This document shows positions 9,825 through 27,708 of a stretch of 64,000 nucleotides of DNA, in pieces. The notes under the pieces are model-generated. The model saw nothing but the letters and a program-made list of their open reading frames with translations, had not been told where the DNA came from and did no database searches. The first letter of the stretch is position 1. Each line of letters starts with the position of its first letter. The DNA is from an uncultured Actinomycetes bacterium (GTDB lineage: Bacteria > Actinomycetota > Thermoleophilia > UBA2241), in assembly GCA_963783865.1 (NCBI GenBank), contig CAWAPD010000002.1, positions 54,950 through 118,949 on the forward strand. Direction: 5' to 3'. Position numbers and translations under genes: made by a program.

Positions 9825-9847
9825 GAACGCCCCACCGAACGCTCGCG

Positions 9848-10268: not shown

Positions 10269-10290
10269 CGTTCATCCTCCGTTCATCCTC
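10269..10290 (+). promoter_or_regulatory. Perfect tandem 11-bp direct repeat (CGTTCATCCTC x2), candidate OmpR-family response-regulator site
   Basis: Read directly: CGTTCATCCTCCGTTCATCCTC. It lies about 135-155 nt upstream of the NOX-like gene start. The one-helical-turn spacing is typical of OmpR/PhoB sites, and a cognate-looking TCS is adjacent. Confidence 0.35.
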
Positions 10291-10423
10291 GCCGGTGAGA
10301 ACCGTCCTCGAGTCAAGAGAGAGGCTGGGGGCGGCGAGGGCCGCGGACCGACGCCGCGGCCGCCAACGCGGCGGCAGCCGCGGCCCTCACCGCCCGCCGG
10401 CCGCAGCAGAGGAGTTGAGGAGC

Positions 10424-11839: not shown

Positions 11840-11858
11840 GGCGAGGGGAGGGACGACG

Positions 11859-16316: not shown

Positions 16317-17012
16317 ATGAAGATCGGGATCGTAGGCTCGGGCGCCGTGGCCCAAACGCTGGGGACGAGGCTGGCGGAGCTCGGCCAGACCGTGATGATC
16401 AGCTCACGCGACACGGGCAGGGGGAAGGACCTGGGCGAGCGCGGCGCGCTGCCGTCGGCCGACGAGTGGGCGGCGGCCCAGCGTGCCGCCGGGCGCGAAG
16501 CGGCGGCTGGCAGCTTCGACGCCGCCGCCGTCTTCGGCGAGCTCGTCATCGTGGCCACGCCGGGCCTGAACGCGCTCGACGCTCTGGCCACCGTCGAGCG
16601 GGCCGCCCTCGACGGCAAGATCGTGGTCGACCTCTCGAACCCGCTCGACTTCTCCCACGGGATGCCGCCGATCCTCGGCGTGTGCAACACCGAGTCCATC
16701 GGCGAGCGCGTCCAGGCCGCCTTCCCCGAGGCGCGCGTCGTGAAGACGCTGAACACGGTCAACGTGGGCGTGATGATCGATCCCGGCGCGCTCGGCGAGG
16801 ACACGCACCTGTTCGTCGCCGGCAACGACGCCGAGGCGAAGCGCTGGGTGACCGAGCATCTCCTCATGGGTCTGCTGGGCTGGAAGCTCGTGCTCGACGT
16901 CGGCGACATCACGGCCGCCAGGGGGTTGGAGATGTACCTGCCGTTGTGGCTGCGCCTGTTGCGCGCGACCGGCACCGCCATGGTGAACGTCAAGGTGGTC
17001 GCGGCGGCGTGA
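16317..17012 (+). CDS. NADP oxidoreductase, coenzyme F420-dependent family (NpdG-like)
   Basis: Rossmann 'MKIGIVGSGAVAQTLG'. The family-typical layout continues to 'GNDAEAK..V..L'. SD AAGGAGG upstream. Confidence 0.75.
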   Translation: MKIGIVGSGAVAQTLGTRLAELGQTVMISSRDTGRGKDLGERGALPSADEWAAAQRAAGREAAAGSFDAAAVFGELVIVATPGLNALDALATVERAALDGKIVVDLSNPLDFSHGMPPILGVCNTESIGERVQAAFPEARVVKTLNTVNVGVMIDPGALGEDTHLFVAGNDAEAKRWVTEHLLMGLLGWKLVLDVGDITAARGLEMYLPLWLRLLRATGTAMVNVKVVAAA

Positions 17013-17043
17013 GAGACAAGGCGGCTGGTGAGAGCCAGCGGCG

Positions 17044-17080
17044 ACGAGGGCGGCGGGGCCTGCAGCCCCGCCGCCCTCGT
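17044..17080. terminator. Perfect hairpin between convergent genes (16-bp stem, 5-nt loop)
   Basis: ACGAGGGCGGCGGGGC-CTGCA-GCCCCGCCGCCCTCGT. Confidence 0.6.
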
Positions 17081-17124
17081 CCTCCCCGGCCGCCGTCGTC
17101 ACACCGGCCGGCGGCCCTCCACCG

Positions 17125-18165
17125 TCAGAGCGACGTCGTCGCCAGGTACTGGTCCAGTACGTCGACGACCGTCCCGAGCTGCGTCTCGATGCGGCCCGGG
17201 TACCGGATCTCCCAGTAGGCGAGCGTGTCCTTGTTGGTATGCCAGATCACGCCGTCCTTGGTCGTGTTCTCGTAGCCGTCCTTGTCCCCGATGAGCCAGT
17301 TCGTCGCCTCGAAGTACACCCACGGGATGTGGCCGGCCTCGAAGGCATCGCTGTCGCTGAAGAAGGGCTCGGTCTCCCCGTACGGGATCGGCTTGTGGCC
17401 GTAGTCGGCGAGCGGCTTGCTGAGGCCCGGGTTGGTCATCAGCGGCGTGCCCTGCTGCCGGGCGATGCGCTGCAGCTGCAGCCGCGCGTCGAAGCTGACC
17501 GCGTTGCCGGGGCCGTTGTACACGCACAGCTGGTCGCCCCCGGCGGGGCTATCGAGGTTGACCGTCAGCGCGATGTCACCGCGCTCGGTCGGCGTCAGGT
17601 GCTTCACGTAGTAGGAGGAACCCTCTTCGCCGAACTCCTCACCGCCGAAGGCGATGAAGACCAGCGTGTCCGGAGTCGCCACCGACTGGAACCGGGCGGC
17701 CAGATCGAGCACGACGGCGACGCCCGTGGCATTGTCGGCGGCGCCGCGGTTGGTCGGGTTCGGCTGGCCGGCATAGGTCGCGAACGCCGAGTCATAGTGC
17801 GCACCGACGACGATCACCTTCGACGAGCTGCCCGGCTTGATCGCGATGACGTTGGCCGTCTCCCTCGTCTTGCCGCCGCCGACGAACGAGAAGTCTTGGA
17901 CCTGGGGCGTGTAGCCGGCGGCCGTGAACTGGTCCGCGACCCACTGGGTCGCGGCCGCGCCGCCCGCCGTGCCGGCCACCCTGCGGCCGATACCGTCGGT
18001 CAGCCCGGCGAGGTACTCGTAGGCGGAGGCGCCGGCGGAGACCGTCGCCGGCGCCCCGCCGGCGCCGCCTCCGCCGGGCGACGCGGCCAGGCTCAGCGAC
18101 GCCCACAGCGCCAGGCCGAGCAGCCCCGCGACGACCACCGCCAGCATGAGTCTCCTTCGATTCAT
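17125..18165 (-). CDS. Secreted M28-family aminopeptidase
   Basis: Signal peptide 'LMLAVVVAGLLGLALWASLSLA'. Zn-ligand regions 'VGAHYDS', 'GAADNATGVAVVL' and 'FGGEEFGEEGS'. Confidence 0.85.
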   Translation of the reverse strand: MNRRRLMLAVVVAGLLGLALWASLSLAASPGGGGAGGAPATVSAGASAYEYLAGLTDGIGRRVAGTAGGAAATQWVADQFTAAGYTPQVQDFSFVGGGKTRETANVIAIKPGSSSKVIVVGAHYDSAFATYAGQPNPTNRGAADNATGVAVVLDLAARFQSVATPDTLVFIAFGGEEFGEEGSSYYVKHLTPTERGDIALTVNLDSPAGGDQLCVYNGPGNAVSFDARLQLQRIARQQGTPLMTNPGLSKPLADYGHKPIPYGETEPFFSDSDAFEAGHIPWVYFEATNWLIGDKDGYENTTKDGVIWHTNKDTLAYWEIRYPGRIETQLGTVVDVLDQYLATTSL

Positions 18166-18259
18166 GGCTTCCCCCTTGTCTCTCGATGGCTTCCGATGCC
18201 AGTCGGGGCCGGCGCGCAGACCACCCGGCCTGCGCGCCGGCCCCCGTGACCGCAGTCCC

Positions 18260-19621
18260 TCACGCGCCCCCGGCCAGCGTGGCGTGCATGGCGCGGGCCG
18301 CCCTGCGGCCCGCGCCCATCGCGCTGATCACCGTCGCCGCCCCAGTCACCACGTCGCCGCCGGCCCACACCCGCTCGCGCGAGGTCAGCCCAGTCTCCTC
18401 GTCGGCGACGATGTTGCCCCGCCGGCCCACGTCGAGTCCCGGCGTGGTCATCGGGATCAGCGGGTTGGGGCTGTTGCCGATGGCGCAGACCGACGCGTCC
18501 ATCTCCATGACGAACTCCGAGCCGGGAATCTCGATGGGGCGCCGGCGGCCCGAGTCGTCGGGCTCGCCCAGCTCCATGCGGCGACACTCCACGCCGGTCA
18601 GCCAGCCACTCTCGCCGATCAGCTGCACCGGCAAGGTGAGGAGGTCGAAGATCACGCCCTCCTCCTCGGCGTTCTCGACCTCCTCGGCGCGCGCCGGCAG
18701 CTCGGCCTTGCCCCGCCGGTAAACGATGTGGACCTCGTCGGCGCCCAGGCGCAGGGCCGTGCGGGCCGAGTCCATGGCCACGTTGCCGCCGCCGAACACC
18801 GCCACCCGCGCCGAGCGCTTGAGCGGCGTGTCGAAGGCGGGGAAGCGGAAGCCGCGCATCAGGTTGCAGCGGGTCAGGTACTCGTTGGCGGAGTAGACAC
18901 CGTTCAGGTTCTCACCGGGGATCTCCAGGAACCACGGCAGCCCTGCGCCGGCGCCGACGAACACGCCATCGAACGACTCCACCAGCGCATCGATCGTGCG
19001 TGTCTTGCCGACCACGAAGTCGAGGCGCAGGTCGACCCCGAGGCTGCGCACGTACGACACCTCGCGACGCACGATCGCCTTGGGCAGGCGGAACTCGGGG
19101 ATGCCGTAGGTGAGCACGCCGCCGGCCTCGTGCAGGGCCTCGAACATCGTCACCTCGTAGCCCTTGAGCGCGAGGTCGGCGGCCACGGTGATGCCCGCCG
19201 GCCCCGACCCGACGATGGCGATACGCAGGCCGTTGAGGGGCGGGAGAGGCGGAGCCTCTCCCGCCCCGTCCTCCGCCTCGTGGTCGGCGACGAACCGCTC
19301 CAGCCGGCCGACCGCCACCGGGTCCCCTTTCTTGCTCAGCAGGCAGTTGCGCTCGCACTGCTCTTCCTGCGGACAGACGCGGCCGCAGACGGCCGGCAGC
19401 GCGTTCGTCTCCTTGACCTTGCGGGCGGCGGCGGCGAACTCGCCGTCGGCGACCAGGCCGATGAAGCCGGGGATGTCGATGCCGACGGGACAGCCCTCGA
19501 CGCAGCCCGGCTTCTTGCAGCCCAGGCAGCGTCCGGCCTCCTCGCGCGCCAGTTCCGGCGTGTAGCCCAGCGCCACCTCGTCGAAGTTGCGCACGCGCTC
19601 GAACGGCTCCTGCTTGGGCAT
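18260..19621 (-). CDS. nfnB: NfnB/SudA/GltD-like NADPH-dependent oxidoreductase (2x[4Fe-4S] + FAD)
   Basis: 'CLGCKKPGCVEGCP' and 'CGRVCPQEEQCERNC'. Dinucleotide folds 'IVGSGPAGITVA' and 'VFGGGNVAMD'. Start at ATG 19621 (MPKQEPF). Confidence 0.88.
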   Translation of the reverse strand: MPKQEPFERVRNFDEVALGYTPELAREEAGRCLGCKKPGCVEGCPVGIDIPGFIGLVADGEFAAAARKVKETNALPAVCGRVCPQEEQCERNCLLSKKGDPVAVGRLERFVADHEAEDGAGEAPPLPPLNGLRIAIVGSGPAGITVAADLALKGYEVTMFEALHEAGGVLTYGIPEFRLPKAIVRREVSYVRSLGVDLRLDFVVGKTRTIDALVESFDGVFVGAGAGLPWFLEIPGENLNGVYSANEYLTRCNLMRGFRFPAFDTPLKRSARVAVFGGGNVAMDSARTALRLGADEVHIVYRRGKAELPARAEEVENAEEEGVIFDLLTLPVQLIGESGWLTGVECRRMELGEPDDSGRRRPIEIPGSEFVMEMDASVCAIGNSPNPLIPMTTPGLDVGRRGNIVADEETGLTSRERVWAGGDVVTGAATVISAMGAGRRAARAMHATLAGGA

Positions 19622-19662
19622 CGGGCGTCTGACGTAGTCGACGGGGCTCACGTTCGCCGCTC

Positions 19663-20496
19663 CTAGAAGTGCGACGTGCAGCCGCTGCGGTGCAGCGGCT
19701 CCACCTCTTCGGCGCTGTAGCCCTCGCGGCGGGCGAGGAACTCCTCCCAGTCCACCTCGTGGCCGTCGAACTCGGGCCCATCCACGCAGGCGAACTTCGT
19801 CTCTCCGGCGACCGTCAGACGGCAGACGCCGCACATGCCGGTGCCGTCGATCATGATCGGGTTCATGCTGACGATCGTCTTGACGCCGAGCGGCTCGGTC
19901 TGGCGCGCCACGGTCATCATCTGGAAGGTGCAGCCGTGGACGATGACGCGGTCGGGCTGCACGTCTTCGAGAGCGAGGATCTCGGCCAGGCGGCTGACGT
20001 GCCCTTTGTAACCGCGGCTGCCGTCGCGGGTGACGACGATGACCCGCTCGCACACCTCGGCCAGGCGGTCCTCCCAGTAGAGCAGGTACGAGCTGCGCGC
20101 CTCGATCAGCGCCACCACGCGGTTGCCGGCGGCCCTCAGCGCGCGGGCGATCGGCAGGATGCTGCCGATGCCGTAGCAGCCGCCGACCACGAGCACCGCG
20201 CCGAAGCGGTCGATCTCGGTCGGGTTGCCGAGCGGGCCCGCGTAGGAGGGTACCTCGTCGCCGCCCTTCAGCCGCGCCAGCTTGGCCGTCGAGGCGCCGA
20301 CCTGCACGAACACCGAGCTGACCGTGCCGGCACTCACGTCGGTGTCGGCGATCGTCAACGGGATCCGCTCCCCCTGCTCGTCCGGGCGCAGGATCACGAA
20401 GTTGCCCGGCAGCGCCGACTCGGCGACCTCGGGCGCCCGCACGGTCAGCAGGTGGACGTTGGGGACGAGCATGCGCCGCTCAACGACCGGGACCAC
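19663..20496 (-). CDS. nfnA: NfnA/SudB/PyrK-like FAD/[2Fe-2S] subunit
   Basis: 'RIPLTIAD', 'VVGGCYGIG' and the C-terminal cluster 'GTGMCGVCR..KFACVDGPEF'. Confidence 0.88.
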   Translation of the reverse strand: MVPVVERRMLVPNVHLLTVRAPEVAESALPGNFVILRPDEQGERIPLTIADTDVSAGTVSSVFVQVGASTAKLARLKGGDEVPSYAGPLGNPTEIDRFGAVLVVGGCYGIGSILPIARALRAAGNRVVALIEARSSYLLYWEDRLAEVCERVIVVTRDGSRGYKGHVSRLAEILALEDVQPDRVIVHGCTFQMMTVARQTEPLGVKTIVSMNPIMIDGTGMCGVCRLTVAGETKFACVDGPEFDGHEVDWEEFLARREGYSAEEVEPLHRSGCTSHF

Positions 20497-22903
20497 GGGC
20501 GCCTCCCTTCGAGATCCGCGCCCTGACCGGCGCCGTCCCGAACCCGGCGCCCTCGGCGCCGGCCAGGTAGGCGGCGCCCCGGGGGCACCCGGGATCGGGC
20601 CGCGCGGCGAAGACCGCGGCGCGGCCCTCGACCTTGACGGTCACCGGGTCGTCCGGTCCGACGCCCAGCCGCGCCAGGTCGTCGGGGTTCAGGCGCACGC
20701 CATCCTCGAGACGGAGCTCGTCGAGGCCCTCGACCACGGCGGCAAGGTCGATGCCGCGATGACGGAAGGCGCCGTGCTCGGGCACCAGGACGAAGCGGCC
20801 CGCGCCCGCGACGGCGCTCGCCGGCGCCGTGTCCGGCGGGCTGCCGAACGGCGTCATGCGGCGCGGCGCCCGGTCGCCCTCGGCCGGCCGGCCCGGTACC
20901 TCGGCGCGCATCGCCCTGCGGACCCCGGTGACGCTGGCGAAGCCCGCGCCGCGCCGCTTCAGGCGCCGCGCGAGCTCCGCGAAGACCCACCAGTCGGGGC
21001 GGACGGAGCCGGCGGCCGCGCCCCCGGCGGGCCTTCCGGAAGCGGCCCGCTCCACCCCGACCAGCTCCTGGACGCGCCCCTCGATGCTGGTGAGCGTACC
21101 GTCGGCCTCGGCGAACGAGGCCGCCGGCAGGAACACGTCGACGTCGAAGGGCGGCAGGTAGAGGTCCTGGGCGATCACGACCTCGGCCTCGGGTCGCGTG
21201 GCGAAAGGCGTTTCGCCGACAAGGTAGAGGACGCGGGGGTGCTGCCCGGCCTGGAGCCGGCCGAGCGTGAAACCGGAGCCTTCGCCCGGCCGGGGGCCGG
21301 GCAGCACCCCCGCGAGCGCGCCCAGCTCCAGCGCGCCGCGGGTGTTGGCGCCGTGGACCAGCGGTAGGACGGTCACGCCGTCGCGAGCGGCGACGGCCAG
21401 CAGGGCGGCCGCCAGATCCTGCGCGCCGGGGCACTCGAAGACGCGCGGCCCGGCGACGACCGCCAGCGTGCCGTCGCCGCCCCACGCGCGCACCTCGTCG
21501 GTCAACGCCGTCGCCTCGCCGCCCGGCGCGGTGCGCCGCCAGCGATGGGCCATGCGCGCCAAGTTCGATTCGCGGGCGTCGACGGCGACCAGGGTGGCGC
21601 CGCGCCGCAGGGCGCGGCGCACCTGTACCCCCACGACCGAGAACGAGAAGCGCGTGTCGAGACCGGCGACCAGCACCGTGTCGGCGACGGCGACGGCCCC
21701 AATCGAGACGGGCAGCGAGAAGAGGTGCGACCACAGCGCCGGCCCACCGGGCAGCGACCGGCGGGCGCTTGAGTCGATGCCCTCCGACCCGAGTCCGGCG
21801 CGCACGAGGCGCTGGGCGGCGTAGAGGCCCTCGTTCGACAGGTCGCCCGAGACGAGCGCCAGGAGCTCGTCGGGGGCGACCCGCCCGAGAGCGAGGGCCG
21901 CCGCGCCCAGCGCCTCGTCCCAGTCCACGACCCGGAAGTAGCCCCCTTTGCGCAGCATCGGCTTGCGCGCCCGCGCATAGTGGTGGGTCGCCTCGGGCAG
22001 GCAGAACCGCCCGCGCACGCAGAGCTGGCCGTCGTTGATCTCGGGGTCGGGCGCTCCTCGCGCGGCCGACAGCCGGGCGTCGCCGTGGGCGAGCTCCAGG
22101 CGGCATCCCAGACCGCAGAACGGGCAGGTCGAGGTCTCGACGCCGTCCGGCCTGCCATCCCACTTCGAGACCTTGTCGGCCAGCGCCCCCGTCGGGCAGA
22201 CCGACACGCAGGCGCCGCAGAACTCGCAGCCGGCGTCGACGTGCGAGGTGCCGAACGCCGGGCCGATCAGGGCCCGGCGCCCCCGGTACTTGAACGCCAG
22301 CACCGAGGTGCCGCGCACCTCGTGGCACATCCGCACGCAGCGCCCGCAGAGGATGCAGAGGTTGTAGTCGCGGTCGAAGAACGGGTCGTCGTGCTCGGCC
22401 TCCAGGCCCCTGTAGGTGACCGGGAACTCGATCTCCTCGAGTCCCACGAGGTCGACCACGTGCTGCAGCTCGCACTCACCGTCGTTGGGACAGCTGCGAC
22501 AGCCGGTCGTGACGCCGGCCTTGCGGATGGTGGTCAAGCTGCGCCGGCAGTCGTCCTGCTCGCCGCAGAACAGGCAGCTCGAGGGATGCTCCGACAGGAT
22601 CAGGCTGAGCACGTCCCGGCGCAGCTCGCGCAGCTCCTCGGTGTCGGTCGTCACCTCCATGCCGTGGGTCACCTCGGTGCTGCAGGCCAGCGGATGCCCG
22701 CGCATCCCCTCGATCTCCACGGCGCACAGCCGGCAGCCGCCGAACGGCGACAGCTCCTCGTGCGAGCAGAGCGAGGGGATGTCGATCCCGGCGCGCTCCG
22801 CCGCCGCGAGCACCGTCGTCCCCTCCGGGACCGACACGTGGTGACCATCGACGCGCACGCGCGCCAGACGGGTGGCGGTCCCCGTGGCCGGCTCAGCGCG
22901 CAT
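20480..22903 (-). CDS. NuoG/FdhA-like Fe-S + molybdopterin-oxidoreductase-fold subunit (active-site Cys/Sec replaced by Ser)
   Basis: N-terminal [2Fe-2S] 'CSHEELSPFGGCRLC'. His/Cys cluster and two CxxCxxCxxxCP-type clusters. MopB [4Fe-4S] 'CPFCGLGCRL' and 'GQLCVRGRF'. 'IDSSARRSLPGG' aligns to FdhF '[12 protein letters not shown]'. C-terminal beta-barrel domain. Confidence 0.85.
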   Translation of the reverse strand: MRAEPATGTATRLARVRVDGHHVSVPEGTTVLAAAERAGIDIPSLCSHEELSPFGGCRLCAVEIEGMRGHPLACSTEVTHGMEVTTDTEELRELRRDVLSLILSEHPSSCLFCGEQDDCRRSLTTIRKAGVTTGCRSCPNDGECELQHVVDLVGLEEIEFPVTYRGLEAEHDDPFFDRDYNLCILCGRCVRMCHEVRGTSVLAFKYRGRRALIGPAFGTSHVDAGCEFCGACVSVCPTGALADKVSKWDGRPDGVETSTCPFCGLGCRLELAHGDARLSAARGAPDPEINDGQLCVRGRFCLPEATHHYARARKPMLRKGGYFRVVDWDEALGAAALALGRVAPDELLALVSGDLSNEGLYAAQRLVRAGLGSEGIDSSARRSLPGGPALWSHLFSLPVSIGAVAVADTVLVAGLDTRFSFSVVGVQVRRALRRGATLVAVDARESNLARMAHRWRRTAPGGEATALTDEVRAWGGDGTLAVVAGPRVFECPGAQDLAAALLAVAARDGVTVLPLVHGANTRGALELGALAGVLPGPRPGEGSGFTLGRLQAGQHPRVLYLVGETPFATRPEAEVVIAQDLYLPPFDVDVFLPAASFAEADGTLTSIEGRVQELVGVERAASGRPAGGAAAGSVRPDWWVFAELARRLKRRGAGFASVTGVRRAMRAEVPGRPAEGDRAPRRMTPFGSPPDTAPASAVAGAGRFVLVPEHGAFRHRGIDLAAVVEGLDELRLEDGVRLNPDDLARLGVGPDDPVTVKVEGRAAVFAARPDPGCPRGAAYLAGAEGAGFGTAPVRARISKGGARGPGR

Positions 22904-24791
22904 GGCGGCCTCTCGACTCGATGACGATGGCGTCGCCGGCGATCGCGTCGAAGCGGCAGACCTCGTAGCACGAGCGGCACTTGATGCACTTCTCGGTGTC
23001 GACGTTGTGCGCCTCGGCCCGCGGCCCCGTGATGGCGCCGGTCGGGCACACCTGCACGCAGCGCTGGCAGCCGGTGCAGCGGCCGGGGATGATGCGATAC
23101 ACGACGAGGTCGCGGCAGACCACCGCGCGACACCGCTTCTGCTCGATGTGCTCCAGGAACTCGTCGCGGAAGTAGCGCAGCGACGAGAGCACCGGGTTGG
23201 GCGCCGTCTGCCCGAGGCCACAAAGGGAGCTGGCCTTGACGACGCGGGACAGCCGCTCGAGGCGGTCCAGGTCGGCCAGCTCGCCCTTGCCGGTGCAGAT
23301 CCGGTCGAGGATGTCGACGAGGTGCCCCGTGCCCACGCGGCAGGGGGCGCACTTGCCGCACGATTCGTCCTGCGTGAACTGAAGGAAGAAGCGGGCGAAG
23401 TCGACCATGCAGGTGGAGTCGTCGACCACGACCATGCCGCCGGACCCCATCATCGACCCCGCCGCGGCGAGGCTCTCGTAGTCGATCGGATCGTCGAGCA
23501 ACTCGGCGGGCAGGCAGCCTCCGGAGGGTCCGCCGAGCTGCACCGCCTTGAACTCGCGGCCGGGCAGCATGCCGCCGCCGATCTCGAAGATGACGTGGCG
23601 GAGCGTGGCGCCCATCGGTACCTCGACCAAGCCGCCGTTGGCCACCTTGCCAGTCAGCGAGAAGATCTTGGTCCCCTGTGAGGACGAGGTGCCCTCCGCC
23701 GCGAACGCCTCCGCGCCATGGTTGATGATCCAGGGTACGTTGGCGTAGGTCTCGACGTTGTTGATGTTGGTCGGCTTGCCGAACAGGCCTTCCACCGCCG
23801 GGTAGGGCGGGCGCGTACGAGGCATCCCGCGACGGCCCTCGATGCTCGCCATCAGGGCCGTTTCCTCGCCGCACACGAACGCGCCCGCCCCCTCGGCGAT
23901 GGTGACGTCGAAGGCGAAGTTCGTGCCGAGCACGCGGTCGCCGAGGATGCCGCGCTCGCGCGCCTGCTCGATCGCCCGCCGCAGGCGGTCCACCGCGAAC
24001 TGATACTCGTGTCGAACGTAGATGTAGCCCCGTTGAGCGCCGATGGCGAAGGCGGCTACGATCATGCCCTCGAGCACGACGTGCGGATCGCCTTCGAGGA
24101 CCGAGCGGTCCATGAAGGCCCCGGGGTCGCCCTCGTCGGCGTTGCAGATGATGTACTTGACGTCGCCCGGGCTCGAGCGGGCGAAGCCCCACTTGGTCCC
24201 CGTCTTGAACCCCGCGCCGCCGCGGCCGCGCAGGCCCGACTCGGTGATCGTCTCGATGACGTCCTCGGGATCGTCGTCGGTCAGCACCCGTGCCAGGGCC
24301 TCGTAGCCGCCGTGTCCCAGGTAGTCGTCGATGGAGTAGGGGTCGATCCTGCCGTTCAGCGCGAGCACGCGCCGGCGCTGCCCCACGTAGAACGGGATGT
24401 CCTTCTCACGGGCGACGCGCTGCTTGCTGGCCGGGTCTTTGTAGAGGCGCGGCTGATAGACACCGTCGCCCACAACGCTCGCCTCGACGATCTTCGGGAC
24501 GTCCTCGGGCCGCACGTGCGGATAGAACACGCCGGCCGGCCAGAGCACGACGATCGGCCCTTGCTCGCAGAACCCGTGGCAGCCGGTCTCGATCAGGCGA
24601 TGCGTGCCGTCGAGGCCGCGGGCCGCGATCTCGTCGCGGAACGCGGCCGTCACGGCCGGACGCCCGGAGGCGTGGCACGCGGTGCCGGCGCAGATGCGGA
24701 TCTCCGAGCGCGCGTCGTCGGTGACGTAGGCGCGAGGGTCACGCGCCCGCGCGAGCGCCTCCCCGACGCCGGCGACGACGGTCGCGGCCAT
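22893..24791 (-). CDS. NuoF/HydB/HoxF-like NAD(H)-FMN subunit with N-terminal Trx-like [2Fe-2S] and C-terminal 2x[4Fe-4S] domains
   Basis: 'CAGTACHASG..GCHGFCEQGP', 'GLRGRGGAGFKTGTKW', 'ICNADEGDPGAFMDR', 'ESCGKCAPCR', 'SLCGLGQTAP', and C-terminal 'CTGCQRCVQVCP' and 'CIKCRSCYEVC'. Confidence 0.92.
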   Translation of the reverse strand: MAATVVAGVGEALARARDPRAYVTDDARSEIRICAGTACHASGRPAVTAAFRDEIAARGLDGTHRLIETGCHGFCEQGPIVVLWPAGVFYPHVRPEDVPKIVEASVVGDGVYQPRLYKDPASKQRVAREKDIPFYVGQRRRVLALNGRIDPYSIDDYLGHGGYEALARVLTDDDPEDVIETITESGLRGRGGAGFKTGTKWGFARSSPGDVKYIICNADEGDPGAFMDRSVLEGDPHVVLEGMIVAAFAIGAQRGYIYVRHEYQFAVDRLRRAIEQARERGILGDRVLGTNFAFDVTIAEGAGAFVCGEETALMASIEGRRGMPRTRPPYPAVEGLFGKPTNINNVETYANVPWIINHGAEAFAAEGTSSSQGTKIFSLTGKVANGGLVEVPMGATLRHVIFEIGGGMLPGREFKAVQLGGPSGGCLPAELLDDPIDYESLAAAGSMMGSGGMVVVDDSTCMVDFARFFLQFTQDESCGKCAPCRVGTGHLVDILDRICTGKGELADLDRLERLSRVVKASSLCGLGQTAPNPVLSSLRYFRDEFLEHIEQKRCRAVVCRDLVVYRIIPGRCTGCQRCVQVCPTGAITGPRAEAHNVDTEKCIKCRSCYEVCRFDAIAGDAIVIESRGRHAR

Positions 24792-25315
24792 CAGGCCGGC
24801 CCGAGGTCGGGAGCGCCGGCATCGAGCATCTCCTGCAGCCTGAGCACGCTCATCTGGCCGTGGATGTCGTCGTCCACCGTCACGACCGGCGCCAGCGCGC
24901 AGCAGCCGAGACAGGCGACGCGTTCGACGTCGTACTCCCCGTCCTCCGTCGTCCCGCCGGGTGTCACGCCGAGGCGCCGTTCCAGGGTCTCGAGCATCTG
25001 CACGCCGCCCTTGACGTGGCAGGCGGTGCCCAGGCAGACGCGCAGGTGGTGGCGGCCCGGCGGCGTGAAACGGAACTGAGCGTAGAAGCTGGCGACCCCG
25101 AAGACCTCGTTCTCCGACAGACGCAGCCACCGCGCGATGCGGAGCAGCGTGTCGGGAGCGAGGTAGCCGAGCGCCTCCTGGGCGCGCTGGAGGACCGGGA
25201 CCAGGTCGGAGGGCTCGCCGTGTGGGCCTTGCAGGATCCCATCCCAAGGGTCCGGCGGCGCCGGGGGGCGCCTACGGGCGCCCCGCGGCGCCGCCACACT
25301 GGGCGACCGGGTCAT
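24791..25315 (-). CDS. NuoE/HydC/HoxE-like thioredoxin-fold [2Fe-2S] subunit
   Basis: 'FYAQFRF..PGRHHLRVCLGTACHVKG' and 'ERVACLGCCALAP'. The stop overlaps the next start (ATGA). Confidence 0.9.
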   Translation of the reverse strand: MTRSPSVAAPRGARRRPPAPPDPWDGILQGPHGEPSDLVPVLQRAQEALGYLAPDTLLRIARWLRLSENEVFGVASFYAQFRFTPPGRHHLRVCLGTACHVKGGVQMLETLERRLGVTPGGTTEDGEYDVERVACLGCCALAPVVTVDDDIHGQMSVLRLQEMLDAGAPDLGPA

Positions 25316-25321
25316 CTCCGC

Positions 25322-26407
25322 CTACTTCGAGACCGTCAGGTGCCGCGCGATGTCGACGTACTTCTCGTGCACGCCGGCGATGATGTCCTGCGACTCCATC
25401 GAGGTGTACGCCTGTTCCAGCTCCTCGAGGTCCCGCTGGGTGAGCACGTGGCTGACCATCGGGAAGACGATCGTCTCCTCGAGCTCGATGTGGCGACGCA
25501 TCTCGACGATGTAGGCCCCCAGCTCGTTGTAGAACTCGGCGCCGGGACTGGTGCCCGACTCGCGCGCCTTCTGGAGCCGCTGCTCGATCGAGTCGAACCG
25601 GGCCGACAGGGTGTCGTGATACTCGTTCATCTCGGCCAGCTCGCCTTCGTCCATGTTCACCCCGCGCTGGCCGAGCTTCGCGTAGAGCAGCTGCGCCTCC
25701 TTAGGCACGTGGCACTCGCGCGTGTAGAAGTGCAGGAAGTCGACCAGCTCGTCGAGCTTCTCGAGGTCGACGTCGTCGCCGCGGCGGATGGCGGCCACTT
25801 CGCGCTCGGCCGCGGCGAGCACCTCGAGCAGGACCTTGTGCTCCTTCTGCAGGGTCTCGGTGGGGCGGCCGACGAGCAGGTGCGCGAGTTCGGAGTACCT
25901 GTCGTGCACCCCCTCGGCCGCCTCGGCGGCGTCCTCCGACCCGAAAGCCTCTTCGAGCGCCTCCTGGTCCTCGTCGGTGAGCAGCCCGTTGGCGAGCGTG
26001 AACAGCAGTTCCTCCTCGCGCATCACGTGCGAGCGCATGAGGTCGAGGTAGTCCGTGAGCAGGTCGGCGAGCTCAGCCGGCGGCAGCGGCCCCTCCTTCT
26101 TGTCGCGCCGCAGCCAGTGCTCGACGTCGCGCAGCCGCGCCGTAAGCTCCCGGTGTTCGCGGATGAACTGGGCCAGGATGCCGCTGTCGGCGGGCAGGCC
26201 GCGCACCTGGAGGCGCGCGAACAGGTAGCGTTCCTCCTTGGGGTCGTGGCAGGCCTCGGCGAAGAACTCGAAGAAATCGACGACCTCGCCGACTTCCTCG
26301 GCCCGGTACTCCCCGGTGTCGTGGATGTACCTGACTTCCTGTTCAGCGGCCTTGGTGACGCGGAGCACGAGCGCATGCTCCTTGGCCAGGGTGTCAGTCG
26401 GTCGCAT
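25322..26407 (-). CDS. Tandem (two-domain) hemerythrin HHE cation-binding protein
   Basis: Two homologous halves, each with 'L.KEH..(V)L' ... 'FF..(E)CH.PKEE..L(F/Y)A(R/K)L' ... 'H...EE...FP/F'. Its stop lies 6 nt before the NuoE-like start. Confidence 0.85.
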   Translation of the reverse strand: MRPTDTLAKEHALVLRVTKAAEQEVRYIHDTGEYRAEEVGEVVDFFEFFAEACHDPKEERYLFARLQVRGLPADSGILAQFIREHRELTARLRDVEHWLRRDKKEGPLPPAELADLLTDYLDLMRSHVMREEELLFTLANGLLTDEDQEALEEAFGSEDAAEAAEGVHDRYSELAHLLVGRPTETLQKEHKVLLEVLAAAEREVAAIRRGDDVDLEKLDELVDFLHFYTRECHVPKEAQLLYAKLGQRGVNMDEGELAEMNEYHDTLSARFDSIEQRLQKARESGTSPGAEFYNELGAYIVEMRRHIELEETIVFPMVSHVLTQRDLEELEQAYTSMESQDIIAGVHEKYVDIARHLTVSK

Positions 26408-26683
26408 GGCCGCCTCCCTGCTCGTGATGCACGGACCCATGCGCGCCTGCCGTCGTCTGGCTCCTGGGCGACGGCGAAGCGCACGTCGTGTTGCCGAAGC
26501 TGCGTCGAGGCTCTGGGAGACCCTGTCCTCGTGCTCGGCCGCCTCCCCCATGTGACGGCCCGCACAACCAAGGATACCCCCGCATGCTTCGAGGTCAACA
26601 GGCTCGCCCGGCCATACGTTGTTCGCGCAGGCGTCGCAGCGGGTAGGCAGCGCCCAGCGCAGGCGACGACGGCGAGGTGTCCC

Positions 26684-27100
26684 ATGACGAAGATCCCGAG
26701 CGAGCTCAGAGACCTCCTTTCCGGGGGCCATAACGTGTGGGTGGCGACGGTCGCCCCCGACGGCACCCCCAACGTCTCGATCAAGGGCAGCGGCGCCCTT
26801 CTCGACGACGAGCACCTCTACTTCGCCGACATGTTCAGCCACAAGACGCGCGAGAACCTGGAACACGACCCGCGCGTGGCGGTCGGCATCCACGACCCCG
26901 ACCGCAAGCTCGCGATGCAGGTCAAGGGCACCGCCGAGCTGATCGACCACGGCGACGTCTTCGACCAGGTCAACGAGAAACTGCGAGCCATCAGCGAGGA
27001 GCTCCACCTGCCGCCGATGAAGTACGTGGTGCGCATCGCGGTCGAGTCGGTCTGGGACATGGGTCCGGGACCGCACGCCGGCGACCGCGTCGAGAGCTGA
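26684..27100 (+). CDS. Pyridoxamine 5'-phosphate oxidase-family flavin/deazaflavin-binding protein
   Basis: 'VWVATVAPDGTPNVSIKGS..DDEHLYFADMFSHKTRENL' is a typical split-barrel PNPOx-like sequence. Only the last 138 codons of the 746-aa track ORF are credible. Confidence 0.75.
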   Translation: MTKIPSELRDLLSGGHNVWVATVAPDGTPNVSIKGSGALLDDEHLYFADMFSHKTRENLEHDPRVAVGIHDPDRKLAMQVKGTAELIDHGDVFDQVNEKLRAISEELHLPPMKYVVRIAVESVWDMGPGPHAGDRVES

Positions 27101-27106
27101 GGCGGG

Positions 27107-27146
27107 CGCGAGGGCGGGGCGGGCGCACGCCCGCCCCGCCCTCGCG
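27107..27146 (+). terminator. Perfect GC-rich hairpin (19-bp arms)
   Basis: CGCGAGGGCGGGGCGGGCG-CA-CGCCCGCCCCGCCCTCGCG, 7 nt after the stop. Confidence 0.6.
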
Positions 27147-27158
27147 TATGATGCGCGC

Positions 27159-27590
27159 ATGGCCAGCGCCACTCCCCGCACGGCCGCCGTCCGGACCCTC
27201 CTCGTCCTGCTCGTCGTGCAGGGCATCGGAGCGGTCGGCGGCGGCGTCGCCCTCGTCGCCGGCCCCGACGGGGCCATCCTGCACATGCCGGCCGGGAACC
27301 TGCACGGGTCGCCGTTCCACGATTTCCTGATCCCCGGCATCGTGCTGCTGGTCGTTCTCGGCATCTGGCCGCTCGCCGCCGCCGCCGGCCTCTGGCGTCA
27401 CCACGCCTGGGCCTGGTACAGCGCCTTCGCCATCGGCTGCGCCCTCATGATCTTCGAGGTCGTCGAGGCCCTGTCGATCCCCTTCAGCCCCTTGCAGCCC
27501 ATCTACTTCGTGGTCGGCCTCGCCCTGGCGTCGCTGGCCCTGCTCCCGTCGGTCCGGCGCTTTGCCGGCCTGCGCCCGCTCGGCCGCTAG
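27159..27590 (+). CDS. 4-TM membrane protein, unknown function
   Basis: 143 aa with four hydrophobic helices and high GC3. Confidence 0.6.
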   Translation: MASATPRTAAVRTLLVLLVVQGIGAVGGGVALVAGPDGAILHMPAGNLHGSPFHDFLIPGIVLLVVLGIWPLAAAAGLWRHHAWAWYSAFAIGCALMIFEVVEALSIPFSPLQPIYFVVGLALASLALLPSVRRFAGLRPLGR

Positions 27591-27708
27591 GGCATCGCGT
27601 CGCGAGGCGCCGGCGGGTAGGGCAGCGCAGCCCGGCGCCGAATCCCTACCCGTGACCGCGGTCTAACGGCCGGCCTCGGCGCGCCGATAAGACTTCTGGA
27701 GCTTCTGC

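What the first reader, a model, noticed from the sequence alone, without database searches (positions are those of the whole stretch)
18260..26407. One operon joins a tandem hemerythrin, a HydBC/Bfu-type flavin module, a MopB-fold subunit and a complete NfnAB
On the minus strand the order is:
- hemerythrin (25322-26407)
- NuoE/HydC-like (24791-25315)
- NuoF/HydB-like (22893-24791)
- NuoG/FdhA-like (20480-22903)
- NfnA (19663-20496)
- NfnB (18260-19621)

The junctions are a 6-nt gap, an ATGA overlap, an 11-nt overlap, a 17-nt overlap and a 41-nt gap. This points to a single transcript with translational coupling.

The F-like subunit has an extra N-terminal Trx-like [2Fe-2S] domain and a C-terminal 2x[4Fe-4S] ferredoxin domain. 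That is the HydB architecture of flavin-based electron-bifurcating Bfu enzymes, not respiratory NuoF.

The window contains no [FeFe] H-cluster domain, no NiFe subunits and no other nuo genes. NfnAB on its own is already a bifurcating transhydrogenase. Sporomusa-type Stn combines HydBC-like subunits with a GltD-like module. Here both sets are encoded separately but together, led by an O2/NO/iron-binding hemerythrin.

I am not aware of a characterised complex with this composition. It could be a new NADH/NADPH/ferredoxin redox-balancing complex, with the hemerythrin as sensor or protector.
Basis: partly seen in the sequence, partly recalled or inferred. Interest (0 to 1): 0.7.

Follow-up and report, generated by a model that had tools for sequence, protein, structure and literature searches.

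The report
Bfu flavin core operon with NfnAB
A soil actinobacterium carries one operon that joins the core of one family of electron-splitting redox enzymes (BfuABC) to a complete copy of a second, unrelated one (NfnAB); this five-gene unit recurs in more than a dozen bacterial phyla, I found no description of it, and the hemerythrin gene in front of it is a local add-on.

Summary
Six co-directional minus-strand genes at 18260-26407 encode a tandem hemerythrin, BfuC/HydC, BfuB/HydB, a NuoG-like BfuA, NfnA and NfnB. Two details need correcting. The E/F junction is a 1-nt TGATG overlap, not ATGA. nfnB most likely starts at GTG 19651, giving an 11-nt gap.

BfuB has every cofactor motif of the bifurcating enzymes, including all five B2 ligands. 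BfuA has no catalytic site: the Mo-ligand Cys-His of formate dehydrogenases is deleted across the whole family. NfnAB are canonical.

The five-gene core is strongly conserved. In a scan of species-representative genomes, 62 of 64 loci with enough flank have nfnA-nfnB directly after the BfuA gene, across more than 12 phyla. Two independent BfuA-NfnA gene fusions exist.

The characterised Nfn-Bfu/Stn subunit equals this BfuA with an NfnB-like domain inserted exactly between two tandem Cys motifs. The locus is therefore best read as a split Nfn-Bfu that also keeps the NfnS subunit.

The hemerythrin is operonic only here and in one relative genome. Elsewhere it is about 8 kb away or unlinked.

I found no published description of this cluster. 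The function (an NADPH/NAD/ferredoxin oxidoreductase, possibly with two bifurcation sites in series) is inferred, not shown.

The parts
26571..26598 (-). Promoter-like site (TTGACC-16-TATCCT), about 165 nt upstream of the hemerythrin start, in the 276-nt divergent intergenic region
   Evidence: It is the only sigma-70-type match on the minus strand in 16900-27800. The divergent PNPOx-like gene lies at 26684-27092 (+). This is a consensus match only, in a 72% GC genome.
25322..26407 (-). Tandem hemerythrin (2 x HHE domain, 361 aa), the first gene of the operon and a lineage-specific accessory
   Evidence: PF01814 E=2.5e-27 with two stretches. The halves are 39% identical, E=3e-40. Family-invariant ligands: H54/E58/H85/H127/E131 in half 1 and H190/H233/E237/H264/H306/E310/H347 in half 2. 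Half 1 also has H11 and H168 in the window sequence. GGGAGG lies 8 nt before the ATG. The family is small: 38 hits; the four that carry a taxon name are Thermoleophilia.
24791..25315 (-). BfuC / HydC / NuoE-like [2Fe-2S] subunit (174 aa)
   Evidence: PF01257 E=1.4e-42. Scores are below the equivalog cut-offs for NuoE, HoxE and FdsG. There is a 6-nt gap after the hemerythrin stop.
22893..24791 (-). BfuB / HydB: FMN/NAD(H) subunit with an N-terminal Trx-like [2Fe-2S] domain, B1, the B2 ligand set and a C-terminal 2x[4Fe-4S] domain (632 aa)
   Evidence: Full-length match to A. mobile NiFe-HydB 7t2r_B (822 bits), to 9bov_B, 9n5u_B and 8oh5_B (the B subunits of the same entries whose A/C chains are the Csac, Tsi and Sov Nfn-Bfu/Stn subunits used below), and to HydB 7q4v_B and 8a6t_B. 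All Cys are conserved, including the equivalents of B2 ligands C438, C476, H525, C531 and C536, plus GGPSGG (ligand list from PMC9304861). There is a 1-nt TGATG overlap with E.
20480..22903 (-). BfuA: a NuoG/FdsA-fold FeS subunit with a non-catalytic MopB domain (807 aa)
   Evidence: Pfam domains. All scores are below the NuoG, FdhA and HoxU cut-offs. Foldseek top hits are FdsA and mycobacterial NuoG, TM 0.7. Invariant Cys sets are present for the [2Fe-2S] cluster, the His-ligated 4Fe-4S cluster, the 2x ferredoxin-type clusters and the MopB Fe4S4 cluster. There is an 11-nt overlap with F.
22472..22588 (-). Tandem Cys motifs in BfuA: H106-x3-C-x2-C-x5-C119, then C135-x2-C-x5-C144-ELQ
   Evidence: Both motifs are present in 79 of 80 related loci. 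A. mobile HydA has only one copy, which aligns to both. In Csac NfnA 9bov_A and Sov StnC 8oh5_C the NfnB-like domain sits between the segments that align to G 12-120 and G 137-304. The same insertion point is described for GltD/SfrB-like domains in PMC7483475 and PMC9888536.
21743..21775 (-). Position equivalent to the Mo-ligand Cys-His of formate dehydrogenases, deleted or replaced (DSSARR-SLPGG)
   Evidence: R. capsulatus FdsA has TDTCARVCHSPTG. The window has DSSARR-SLPGG, and the family has DSTARxx-LPGG wherever it could be aligned. There is no in-frame TGA. The PF01568 hit reaches only 19 bits against a cut-off of 26.8.
19663..20496 (-). NfnA / NfnS: FAD, NAD(H) site and [2Fe-2S] (277 aa, GTG start)
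   Evidence: NF004862, 341 bits (cut-off 220). 266 bits to P. furiosus NfnI-S 5jca_S and 220 bits to T. maritima NfnA. The RIPLTIAD, Gly-rich loop and DGTGMCGxCR motifs are kept. AAGGGAGG lies 7 nt upstream. There is a 17-nt overlap with G.
18260..19651 (-).
   Evidence: TIGR01316, 550 bits (cut-off 472). 552 bits, full length, to T. maritima NfnB 4ylf_B. The IPEFRLP Arg is conserved. Start revised on the basis.
18205..18244 (-). GC-rich 18-bp perfect hairpin 15 nt after the nfnB stop: the likely 3' end of the operon (no U tract)
   Evidence: The 126-nt region folds at -69.8 kcal/mol, against a shuffle mean of -53.4, z = -4.75. The T-tract terminator scan did not call it.

Best explanation
The conserved unit is a five-subunit soluble flavin/iron-sulfur complex.

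- Core: a bifurcating BfuBC core (NAD(H) at the FMN, ferredoxin at the C-terminal 2x[4Fe-4S] domain of BfuB).
- Wire: a NuoG-like BfuA that has no active site of its own and serves as an FeS wire.
- Partner: a canonical NfnSL pair (NfnA + NfnB) that supplies the NADP(H) site.
- Classification: in Bfu terms, a Type-3-like enzyme whose extra subunits are NfnSL. Equivalently, a split version of Nfn-Bfu/Stn that has kept the NfnS subunit.
- Electron path (inferred): the two [4Fe-4S] clusters of NfnB dock onto BfuA at the tandem Cys motifs. That is where the NfnL-like domain is inserted in Stn. They pass electrons along BfuA to the BfuBC flavobicluster.
- Net function (inferred): coupling of the NADPH, NADH and ferredoxin pools.
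- Possible cascade: because NfnS and the bifurcating-FAD environment are intact, two bifurcation sites may act in series. The ideal stoichiometry would be 4 NADPH + 3 NAD+ + 2 Fd(ox) -> 4 NADP+ + 3 NADH + 2 Fd(red).
- Hemerythrin: in this genome the tandem di-iron hemerythrin has been recruited as first gene of the operon. It is probably an O2/NO/peroxide-responsive protector or repair factor for this cluster-rich enzyme, not a core subunit.

Shown: gene content, cofactor motifs, the missing Mo site, conserved synteny, the fusions and the domain correspondence with Stn. Inferred: physical complex formation, electron path, substrates, stoichiometry and the hemerythrin role.
For: - BfuB carries all the bifurcation-type features.
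- BfuA lacks the Cys/Sec-His Mo ligands throughout the family and has no H-cluster, so it needs a partner for a third substrate.
- NfnAB are canonical.
- Synteny: 62 of 64 loci have nfnA-nfnB immediately after G. 63 of 67 have E-F immediately before G. In at least three of the other four (L029, L038, L041) E-F has moved to the end of the cluster while G-nfnA-nfnB stays together; the fourth, L034, ends before that point. The loci span Actinomycetota, Planctomycetota, Acidobacteriota, Chloroflexota, Zixibacteria, Latescibacterota, WOR-3, Eisenbacteria, Krumholzibacteriota, Desulfobacterota (including cultured Syntrophorhabdus aromaticivorans UI) and others.
- In-frame G-NfnA fusions occur in two Acidobacteriota MAGs from different projects, with homologous but diverged linkers, and independently in a Thermoleophilia MAG.
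- Cluster-linked NfnB sequences form a mostly separate clade from the second nfnB copies and from Tma/Pfu NfnB.
- Csac NfnA and Sov StnC align as G(12-120) + NfnB + G(137-...). The published Nfn-Bfu path is FAD-A7-A6-A3-A2-A1-B1 (PMC12018979).
- Operon signals are tight junctions, SD sequences, a single upstream promoter-like site and a terminal hairpin.
Against: - There are no transcript, protein or activity data.
- NfnAB here are so similar to stand-alone enzymes (552 bits to T. maritima NfnB) that they could work alone.
- Two related loci (L068, L084) have E-F-G without an adjacent nfnAB.
- The AlphaFold model is low-confidence across the FeS region (residues 105-250), so the fate of the extra Cys motif is unresolved. 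No multimer prediction was possible.
- With the cascade stoichiometry, the NADPH-forming direction would be thermodynamically unfavourable at usual cellular ratios (my calculation from the E' values in PMC9304861 Table 1). The physiological rationale is therefore unclear.
- The genome scan kept only the 80 best BfuA matches, so the synteny figures describe the close family only.
- The supplementary table of the Bfu survey (PMC9304861) was not available, so a prior listing of this cluster type cannot be excluded.
Confidence: 0.6

Rival explanations
1. These are two independent enzymes that are merely co-transcribed. One is a stand-alone NfnAB transhydrogenase. The other is a BfuABC module whose true third-substrate partner is encoded elsewhere or is unknown.
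For: NfnA and NfnB are canonical and close to enzymes that work as heterodimers. Loci L068 and L084 have E-F-G without an adjacent nfnAB. Functionally related redox-balancing genes are often clustered.
Against: Adjacency holds in 62 of 64 loci across more than 12 phyla. Rearranged clusters keep G-nfnA-nfnB contiguous. There are at least two independent G-NfnA fusions. The linked NfnB sequences form their own clade. BfuA has no catalytic site, and no other candidate partner is encoded in the conserved cluster. Characterised Stn is literally a BfuA-NfnB fusion at the same site.
Confidence: 0.15
2. The locus encodes an NAD(P)-dependent or bifurcating formate dehydrogenase (Fds/Fdh-Bfu type). The MopB subunit would be the catalytic FdhA, as automatic annotation of homologues suggests ('formate dehydrogenase (NADP+) alpha subunit').
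For: The best sequence and fold matches of G include FdsA of Rhodobacter and Methylorubrum. JGI names many homologues FDH alpha.
Against: The Mo-ligand Cys/Sec and the adjacent His are missing, with a one-residue deletion, in the window and across the family, and there is no in-frame TGA. TIGR01591 scores 136 bits against a cut-off of 666. PF01568 is below threshold. The FdsA alignment covers only residues 15-456.
Confidence: 0.03
3. In this genome the hemerythrin is the terminal redox module, analogous to the proposed rubrerythrin-Bfu. The complex would use NAD(P)H and ferredoxin to reduce O2, H2O2 or NO at the di-iron sites, as a detoxification system.
For: The hemerythrin is the first gene of the operon, with a 6-nt gap. 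Both halves keep the di-iron ligands. A Rub-Bfu with a di-iron partner has been proposed (PMC9304861). The window also encodes a multicopper oxidase, which hints at exposure to O2.
Against: Hemerythrin is operonic only in the window and one relative MAG. Its orthologues sit about 8 kb away or are unlinked in other Thermoleophilia. The conserved five-gene unit exists without it in all other phyla. The proposed Rub-Bfu lacks BfuA, whereas here BfuA and NfnAB are present.
Confidence: 0.1
4. E, F and G are a detached NADH-input (N) module of respiratory complex I, or a HoxEFU-type diaphorase.
For: There are Pfam/NCBIfam similarities to NuoE/F/G and HoxE/U, and a fold match to mycobacterial NuoG.
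Against: All equivalog scores are below their cut-offs. F carries the N- and C-terminal cluster domains and the B2 His that non-bifurcating NuoF/HoxF lack. No nuo or hox structural genes are in the window. Linkage to nfnAB is conserved.
Confidence: 0.02

Closest known systems
Nfn-Bfu / Stn (NfnABC of Caldicellulosiruptor saccharolyticus and Thermococcus sibiricus, StnABC of Sporomusa ovata; PDB 9bov, 9n5u, 8oh5)
   Same: It has the same BfuBC core: 9bov_B 752 bits and 9n5u_B 751 bits to the window BfuB. The same NuoG/Fdh-like scaffold carries an NfnL/GltD-type FAD-2x[4Fe-4S] NADP(H) module. The large subunit aligns as G(12-120) + NfnB + G(137-...). It is a soluble NADPH/NAD/ferredoxin enzyme.
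   Different: Here the NfnL module is a separate polypeptide of canonical NfnSL type (552 bits to Tma NfnB against 326 bits to the Csac fused domain). An NfnS/NfnA subunit with its own FAD, NAD(H) site and [2Fe-2S] is present, which Stn lacks. BfuA has duplicated Cys motifs in place of the inserted domain. The window BfuB keeps the N-terminal [2Fe-2S] cysteines that are lost in Csac and Sov.
NfnSL / NfnAB (T. maritima 4YLF, P. furiosus NfnI 5JCA)
   Same: NfnA and NfnB align full length, with the cluster and flavin motifs and the FAD-N5 Arg conserved.
   Different: Known NfnSL are free heterodimers that reduce free ferredoxin. The literature treats NfnSL and NfnABC as alternatives found in different organisms (PMC12018979). 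Here nfnAB is embedded in a Bfu operon, is sometimes fused to BfuA, and forms its own NfnB clade.
Type 3 Bfu enzymes, e.g. NiFe-HydABCSL of Acetomicrobium mobile (7T2R)
   Same: It is the best BfuB match (822 bits, all B1-B5 ligands). It has a NuoG-like BfuA without its own active site, and extra subunits carry the third-substrate site (PMC9304861).
   Different: There the extra subunits are the NiFe hydrogenase S and L subunits. Here they are NfnS and NfnL, themselves a bifurcating flavoenzyme. The window BfuA has an additional Cys3 motif and a full-length MopB domain with a C-terminal barrel.
Bam-Bfu (BamBCDEFGHI benzoyl-CoA reductase) as proposed in PMC9304861
   Same: It is a precedent for a BfuABC module coupled to a second bifurcating flavin module (HdrA) in one complex.
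   Different: The second module there is HdrA, and the end reaction is aryl-CoA reduction at a W-pterin. Neither is present here.
SfrAB of Geobacter sulfurreducens, and the GltD/SfrB-inserted hydrogenases
   Same: It pairs a NuoG/FdhA-like FeS protein that lacks catalysis with a GltD/NfnB-like NADPH flavoprotein. [quoted passage not shown]
   Different: SfrAB has no BfuBC core and no NfnS. I did not compare its sequence directly with the window proteins.

Membership tests
Bfu family (bifurcating BfuBC core) | BfuB with an FMN/NADH domain plus the B1 [4Fe-4S] cluster, an N-terminal Trx-like [2Fe-2S] domain and a C-terminal 2x[4Fe-4S] domain | tested here: met
   Pfam domains. Full-length alignment to 7t2r_B with all Cys conserved.
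Bfu family (bifurcating BfuBC core) | B2 site ligands, including the His that is absent from non-bifurcating homologues (A. mobile C438, C476, H525, C531, C536) | tested here: met
   All five positions are conserved in the window BfuB. The ligand list is from PMC9304861.
Bfu family (bifurcating BfuBC core) | An adjacent BfuC with a [2Fe-2S] cluster | tested here: met
   PF01257 E=1.4e-42, four Cys, and a 1-nt overlap with BfuB.
Bfu family (bifurcating BfuBC core) | Tightly coupled three-substrate bifurcating activity | not testable with these tools
   This needs purified enzyme.
Type 3 Bfu (BfuA with the A1-A5 clusters and extra catalytic subunits) | BfuA carries the [2Fe-2S], the His-ligated 4Fe-4S, two ferredoxin-type 4Fe-4S and the MopB-type 4Fe-4S motifs | tested here: met
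   Invariant residues are C46/57/60/74; H106/C110/113/119; C183/186/189/193/226/229/232/236; and C260/263/267/295.
Type 3 Bfu (BfuA with the A1-A5 clusters and extra catalytic subunits) | Additional subunits are physically bound to BfuA | tested here: inconclusive
   This is supported only indirectly, by synteny in 62 of 64 loci and by G-NfnA fusions. There are no protein data.
NfnSL / NfnAB transhydrogenase | NfnL: Fer4_20 with two [4Fe-4S] clusters, FAD and NADPH folds, and the Arg at FAD N5 | tested here: met
   TIGR01316 at 550 bits exceeds the 472 cut-off. 552 bits to 4ylf_B. IPEFRLP is conserved.
NfnSL / NfnAB transhydrogenase | NfnS: FAD/NAD-binding fold with an Asp-Cys3 [2Fe-2S] motif | tested here: met
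   NF004862 at 341 bits exceeds the 220 cut-off. DGTGMCGVCR...C is conserved against 5jca_S and 4ylf_A.
NfnSL / NfnAB transhydrogenase | A free heterodimer that uses free ferredoxin | not testable with these tools
   The context (operon, fusions) argues for attachment to BfuA, but this is not shown.
Nfn-Bfu / Stn (NfnABC) | An NfnL/GltD-like domain fused within the BfuA polypeptide, in a three-subunit enzyme without NfnS | tested here: not met
   The window BfuA has no GltD-like domain. NfnB is a separate gene, and NfnA (NfnS) is present. The domain correspondence is shown.
Formate dehydrogenase (FdsA / Fdh-Bfu) | A Mo/W-ligand Cys or Sec followed by a His in the MopB domain | tested here: not met
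   ARVCHSPTG is replaced by ARR-SLPGG in the window. The family lacks the CH pair. TIGR01591 scores 136 bits against 666.
Respiratory complex I N-module (NuoEFG) | NuoF without the extra cluster domains, equivalog-level scores, and neighbouring nuo genes | tested here: not met
   TIGR01959 scores 492 against 559, and TIGR01973 scores 265 against 470. F has the extra domains. There are no nuo genes in the window.
HoxEFU diaphorase | A short HoxU (about 240 aa) and hoxYH hydrogenase genes | tested here: not met
   G is 807 aa with a MopB domain. HoxU NF005745 scores 162 against 333, and HoxE scores 130 against 224. No NiFe genes were found.
Hemerythrin (HHE cation-binding domain) | A four-helix domain with His/Glu di-iron ligands | tested here: met
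   PF01814 at 96 bits exceeds the 25.3 cut-off, with two domains. The ligands are conserved in both halves. Metal content was not tested.
RIC / YtfE / DnrN iron-sulfur repair di-iron proteins | An equivalog-level match to TIGR03652, NF008221 or NF041614 | tested here: not met
   28-33 bits against cut-offs of 205-300. The resemblance is at domain level only.

The most novel reading that the evidence does not exclude
The complex is a two-stage (cascade) electron-bifurcating machine.

- Stage 1: NADPH is bifurcated at the NfnB FAD. The high-potential electron goes via NfnA to NAD+.
- Stage 2: the low-potential electron is not released to ferredoxin. It is wired through BfuA into the BfuBC flavobicluster, where it is bifurcated a second time between NAD+ and ferredoxin.
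- Consequence: with ideal coupling (4 NADPH -> 3 NADH + 2 Fd(red)), NADPH could drive the reduction of acceptors down to roughly -680 mV. No single known bifurcating enzyme achieves this from a pyridine nucleotide.

The system is widespread in uncultured anaerobic phyla. In this Thermoleophilia lineage it is paired with a hemerythrin.
Probability: 0.2. Interest if true: 0.85.

Novelty: new variant of a known kind. Interest (0 to 1): 0.6.

Why it matters
Electron bifurcation is how many anaerobes make low-potential ferredoxin without spending ATP. Current literature presents NfnSL and the Bfu-type NfnABC as two unrelated solutions to the same reaction, used alternatively by different organisms.

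A conserved operon that combines a complete NfnSL with a complete BfuABC core has three implications:
1. It adds an uncharacterised and phylogenetically very widespread member to the Bfu family. The hosts are mostly uncultured phyla, plus Syntrophorhabdus.
2. It provides a natural "split" intermediate that explains how the fused Stn/Nfn-Bfu subunit arose, or fell apart.
3. It makes directly testable whether two bifurcation sites can be wired in series.

It also corrects a common automatic annotation of the BfuA gene as formate dehydrogenase, which would distort metabolic reconstructions of these MAGs. The hemerythrin association suggests how such an oxygen-sensitive enzyme might be maintained in soil Actinomycetota.

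Tried and rejected
- **Formate dehydrogenase.** Rejected because the Mo-ligand Cys-His is missing family-wide.
- **Complex I N-module and HoxEFU.** Rejected on scores, extra domains and context.
- **Hidden hemerythrin in other phyla.** I asked whether the first gene of the cluster elsewhere is a diverged hemerythrin. It is not; it is an unrelated Cys-rich protein of about 173 aa with no family hit.
- **G-NfnA fusion as an assembly artefact.** P0050/L010 comes from a long-read MAG in which NfnB is also fused to DRTGG, so alone it is weak evidence. However, L014 and L022 come from different projects, are both fused in frame, and have homologous but diverged linkers. The fusion is therefore real in at least that lineage.
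- **AlphaFold2 of BfuA.** The aim was to see which residues complete the extra Cys3 site. The FeS region (residues 105-250) came out at pLDDT 42-60, so nothing could be concluded.
- **Literature.** Eight full-text searches and several papers (the Bfu survey, both Nfn-Bfu cryo-EM papers, the Stn papers, the Nfn distribution review, the Hydrogenedentota Bfu paper and others) gave no description of a BfuABC+NfnSL cluster. Two sources could not be read: the supplementary table of the Bfu survey, and the Syntrophorhabdus genome paper.
- **Source contig.** The exact-sequence look-up of the window's BfuA found no record.
- **Promoters and terminators.** The scans are of limited value at 72% GC. They gave one promoter-like hit and missed the hairpin after nfnB.

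Full report
**1. The observation**

The window is about 72% G+C, so ORF lists are crowded. Third-position GC picks out one coherent minus-strand series between 18.2 and 26.4 kb.
- a 361-aa protein with two hemerythrin HHE domains (25322-26407);
- a NuoE/HydC-like [2Fe-2S] protein (24791-25315);
- a 632-aa NuoF-like protein with an extra N-terminal thioredoxin-like [2Fe-2S] domain and a C-terminal 2x[4Fe-4S] domain (22893-24791);
- an 807-aa NuoG/FdhA-like protein with a MopB domain (20480-22903);
- an NfnA-type protein (19663-20496);
- an NfnB-type protein (stop at 18260).

The junctions are a 6-nt gap, a 1-nt overlap, an 11-nt overlap and a 17-nt overlap. The E/F junction is TGATG (one shared base), not ATGA. 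nfnB more likely starts at GTG 19651: an AGGAG lies 9 nt upstream and overlaps the nfnA stop, and the extra residues VSPVDYVRRP are conserved in the gene called in a relative. That leaves an 11-nt gap.

**2. Operon boundaries**

Upstream of the hemerythrin lies a 276-nt intergenic region shared with a divergent PNPOx-like gene (26684-27092). It contains the only sigma-70-like match on this strand in the 11 kb scanned (26598-26571).

Fifteen nucleotides after the nfnB stop there is a perfect 18-bp GC hairpin (18244-18205). The surrounding 126 nt fold at -69.8 kcal/mol, z = -4.75 against shuffles. It has no U tract, so the terminator scan missed it. From general knowledge, tail-less hairpins are common 3' ends in high-GC Actinobacteria.

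An M28 peptidase gene follows on the same strand after 94 nt. The rest of the window is housekeeping and shows no hydrogenase, nuo or hox genes.

**3. What each protein is**

- **BfuB.** It aligns end to end with the B subunits of structurally characterised bifurcating enzymes: A. mobile NiFe-HydB 7t2r_B at 822 bits; 9bov_B, 9n5u_B and 8oh5_B (from the same entries as the Csac, Tsi and Sov Nfn-Bfu/Stn subunits used in section 6); and HydB 7q4v_B and 8a6t_B. Respiratory NuoF matches only the central 400 residues. Every cluster cysteine of 7t2r_B is conserved. So are the equivalents of the five B2 ligands (C438, C476, H525, C531, C536) and the GGPSGG loop. The Bfu survey gives that His as a mark of bifurcating BfuB (PMC9304861).
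- **BfuA.** It has the fold of FdsA/NuoG (AlphaFold pLDDT 82; Foldseek TM about 0.7 to both). Sequence similarity to FdsA stops at residue 456. At the position of the Mo ligand, R. capsulatus FdsA has ARVCHSPTG and the window has ARR-SLPGG. The family consensus is DSTARxx-LPGG. Fdh-alpha, NuoG and HoxU equivalog models are all far below cut-off. It is an iron-sulfur scaffold, not a formate dehydrogenase.
- **NfnB and NfnA.** They match T. maritima NfnB (552 bits, full length) and P. furiosus NfnI-S (266 bits). The cluster motifs, flavin and dinucleotide loops and the IPEFRLP arginine are conserved. Both exceed the NCBIfam cut-offs.

**4. Conservation of the cluster**

The BfuA protein has more than 2,500 database relatives. 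The top 120 are 53-79% identical and come from MAGs; the few that carry a source name are Thermoleophilia, Planctomycetota/Phycisphaerae and Aminicenantales.

A scan of one genome per species with a family profile returned 80 loci. I mapped the six window proteins, and the accessory proteins of one planctomycete locus, onto them by tblastn:
- Of 64 loci with at least 2.6 kb downstream of BfuA, 62 have nfnA and nfnB immediately after it.
- Of 67 loci with enough upstream sequence, 63 have E-F immediately before it.
- In at least three of the other four (L029, L038, L041), E-F has moved to the far end of the cluster while G-nfnA-nfnB stays contiguous. The fourth, L034, ends before that point.

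The hosts are Actinomycetota, Planctomycetota, Acidobacteriota (Aminicenantes, Thermoanaerobaculaceae, Holophagales), Chloroflexota, Zixibacteria, Latescibacterota, WOR-3, Eisenbacteria, Krumholzibacteriota, Gemmatimonadota, Ignavibacteria and Syntrophorhabdaceae. The last group includes the only isolate, Syntrophorhabdus aromaticivorans UI.

BfuA and NfnA are fused in frame in two Acidobacteriota MAGs from different projects, with homologous but diverged linkers of about 35 aa. They are also fused, with a different short linker, in a Thermoleophilia MAG.

In a simple NJ tree, the cluster-linked NfnB sequences group apart from second nfnB copies in the same loci and from the T. maritima and P. 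furiosus enzymes (no bootstrap).

Two loci (L068, L084) have E-F-G followed by unrelated genes.

**5. The hemerythrin is an add-on**

Only one other genome in the scan (Actinomycetota MAG palsa_647; L005/L006/L016; BfuA 69% identical) has the hemerythrin as first gene. It also has the M28 peptidase after nfnB.

The tandem hemerythrin family is small: 38 hits, and the four that carry a taxon name are Thermoleophilia. Its other members are placed as follows:
- in two genomes, about 8 kb from the cluster or its usual neighbours, separated by the ApbE/ferric-reductase genes (L089, L092);
- in one genome, beside a DUF438-hemerythrin-PAS protein with no Bfu nearby (L090);
- in one genome, beside a lone GltD-like gene and an IS110 transposase (L091).

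A nearer relative of the window (L007/L008/L013) has the five genes with no hemerythrin.

In most other phyla the cluster carries a different accessory set: a Cys-rich protein of about 173 aa, two DRTGG proteins, a SpoIIAB-like ATPase and a 440-aa protein with a degenerate H-cluster domain plus a C-terminal FeS domain. That set occurs in 45 of 80 loci. It looks regulatory and is absent from the window.

Both hemerythrin halves retain the His/Glu ligand pattern. Matches to the RIC/YtfE repair proteins are far below cut-off.

**6. Relation to known enzymes**

The Bfu survey and the later structural papers list these third-substrate modules: H-cluster, NiFe, Fdh, Wor, Por, Codh, Bam, F420, Nuo, Mbh, Rub, and Nfn in the fused form. 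They describe NfnSL and NfnABC as unrelated enzymes used alternatively. I found no mention of BfuABC combined with NfnSL in any paper I could search.

The sequence comparison gives an exact correspondence:
- In C. saccharolyticus NfnA (9bov_A) and S. ovata StnC (8oh5_C), residues 1-115 align to window BfuA 12-120.
- Residues of about 80-500 align to window NfnB.
- Residues from 567 onward align to BfuA from 137.

The break falls between two tandem motifs in the window protein: H106-x3-C-x2-C-x5-C119 and C135-x2-C-x5-C144-ELQ. Both motifs are present in 79 of 80 related loci. A. mobile HydA has one copy, which aligns to both. The Stn paper and a Desulfitobacterium study describe the same point as the place where GltD/SfrB-like domains were integrated into NuoG/HndD-like proteins.

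The window therefore encodes a split form of the Nfn-Bfu large subunit, plus the NfnS subunit that Stn lacks.

**7. Proposed mechanism (inferred)**

By analogy with the Nfn-Bfu path FAD-A7-A6-A3-A2-A1-B1, the two NfnB clusters would hand electrons to BfuA near the tandem Cys motifs and on to the BfuBC flavobicluster. That core exchanges with NAD(H) and ferredoxin.

NfnA is intact and under strong conservation (53-85% identity across phyla). The NfnB FAD would therefore still sit at a fork, as in NfnSL. If both forks are coupled, the ideal stoichiometry is 4 NADPH + 3 NAD+ + 2 Fd(ox) -> 4 NADP+ + 3 NADH + 2 Fd(red). Using the physiological potentials tabulated in PMC9304861, my calculation is that this could push an acceptor to about -680 mV. 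It would also make the NADPH-forming direction unfavourable.

If NfnA is silent, the enzyme would behave like Stn (2:1:2). I cannot distinguish these cases from sequence. The Bam-Bfu proposal, a Bfu module feeding an HdrA bifurcating module, is a published precedent for two such modules in one complex.

**8. Verdict**

It is less general for the hemerythrin. It is a new variant within the Bfu family, uncharacterised as far as I could establish, and experimentally tractable.

Confidence that the five proteins form one complex is about 0.75. Confidence that it is an NADP(H)/NAD(H)/ferredoxin oxidoreductase as described is about 0.6. Confidence in serial bifurcation is about 0.2.

Noticed in passing
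window 45003-45009 (-), within prfB (about 43940-45104, -): The release factor 2 gene carries the classical programmed +1 frameshift site CTT TGA C. A GGAG lies shortly upstream, after a short ORF0 that starts at ATG about 45104. The main PCRF/RF-1 ORF continues in the +1 frame.
   Followed up: partly
L002 6668-7581 and 14998-17100 (same set in 45 of 80 loci, e.g. L004, L012, L014, L049): Outside the window's lineage, the Bfu-Nfn cluster carries a conserved accessory set. It consists of a Cys-rich protein of about 173 aa with no family hit, two DRTGG proteins, a SpoIIAB-like HATPase_c protein, and a 440-aa protein with a degenerate [FeFe]-hydrogenase H-domain (SVYCP instead of TSCCP) plus a C-terminal PF04060 FeS domain. 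This looks like an H2/redox-sensing regulatory module.
   Followed up: partly
window 22472-22504 (-), BfuA residues 134-144: A second CxxCx5C motif (C135, C138, C144) is invariant across the family. It has no obvious fourth ligand and no counterpart in A. mobile HydA. It might bind an extra cluster at the NfnB docking site. The AlphaFold model is too uncertain here to tell.
   Followed up: partly
window 8780-13077 (+); compare L007/L008 4490-7202, L089 16845-19080, L092 14727-16932: A ferric-reductase/NOX-like membrane flavoprotein gene (FAD and NAD domains) and an ApbE flavin transferase gene lie within a few kb of the Bfu-Nfn cluster, both in the window and in related Actinomycetota MAGs. 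In the window they sit downstream of nfnB on the opposite strand, whereas in relatives they sit upstream. The cluster is therefore inverted relative to its neighbours.
   Followed up: no
window 17125-18165 (-); L005 14833-15876: An M28 peptidase gene follows nfnB on the same strand in both hemerythrin-bearing genomes. It is separated from nfnB by the strong hairpin in the window. This is probably lineage synteny rather than part of the operon.
   Followed up: partly
L069, L071, L075, L078, L087 (Syntrophorhabdaceae and related), about 4-9 kb downstream of the cluster; also L044 17198-19334: A second, more divergent nfnA-nfnB pair (41-45% and 55-63% identity) lies near the Bfu-linked pair. In the Syntrophorhabdaceae and delta-proteobacterial loci it is preceded by a gene with weak similarity to the [FeFe]-hydrogenase-like protein. 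This may be a separate NADP-linked hydrogenase.
   Followed up: no
L029, L036, L038, L041 (Aminicenantales MAG L029; MAGs labelled Eubacteriales L036, L038, L041): The gene order is permuted: CysRich-DRTGG-BfuA-nfnA-nfnB-DRTGG-HATPase-HydS-like-BfuC-BfuB. BfuA stays with nfnAB, not with BfuBC.
   Followed up: yes
window 3169-4566 (+) and 4607-6148 (-); 6067-7803 (+): Two convergent B12-binding radical SAM genes lie next to a three-domain multicopper oxidase gene. The oxidase suggests that the organism encounters oxygen.
   Followed up: no
window 26684-27092 (+): A small PNPOx-like FMN-binding split-barrel protein is encoded divergently from the hemerythrin and shares the putative promoter region. 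A PNPOx_N gene also lies about 4 kb downstream of the cluster in L007/L008.
   Followed up: no
L001/L010 13405-15153: In the Thermoleophilia MAG that has the BfuA-NfnA fusion, NfnB is also fused to the downstream DRTGG domain (582 aa). This was seen in one long-read assembly only, so it could be an indel artefact.
   Followed up: no
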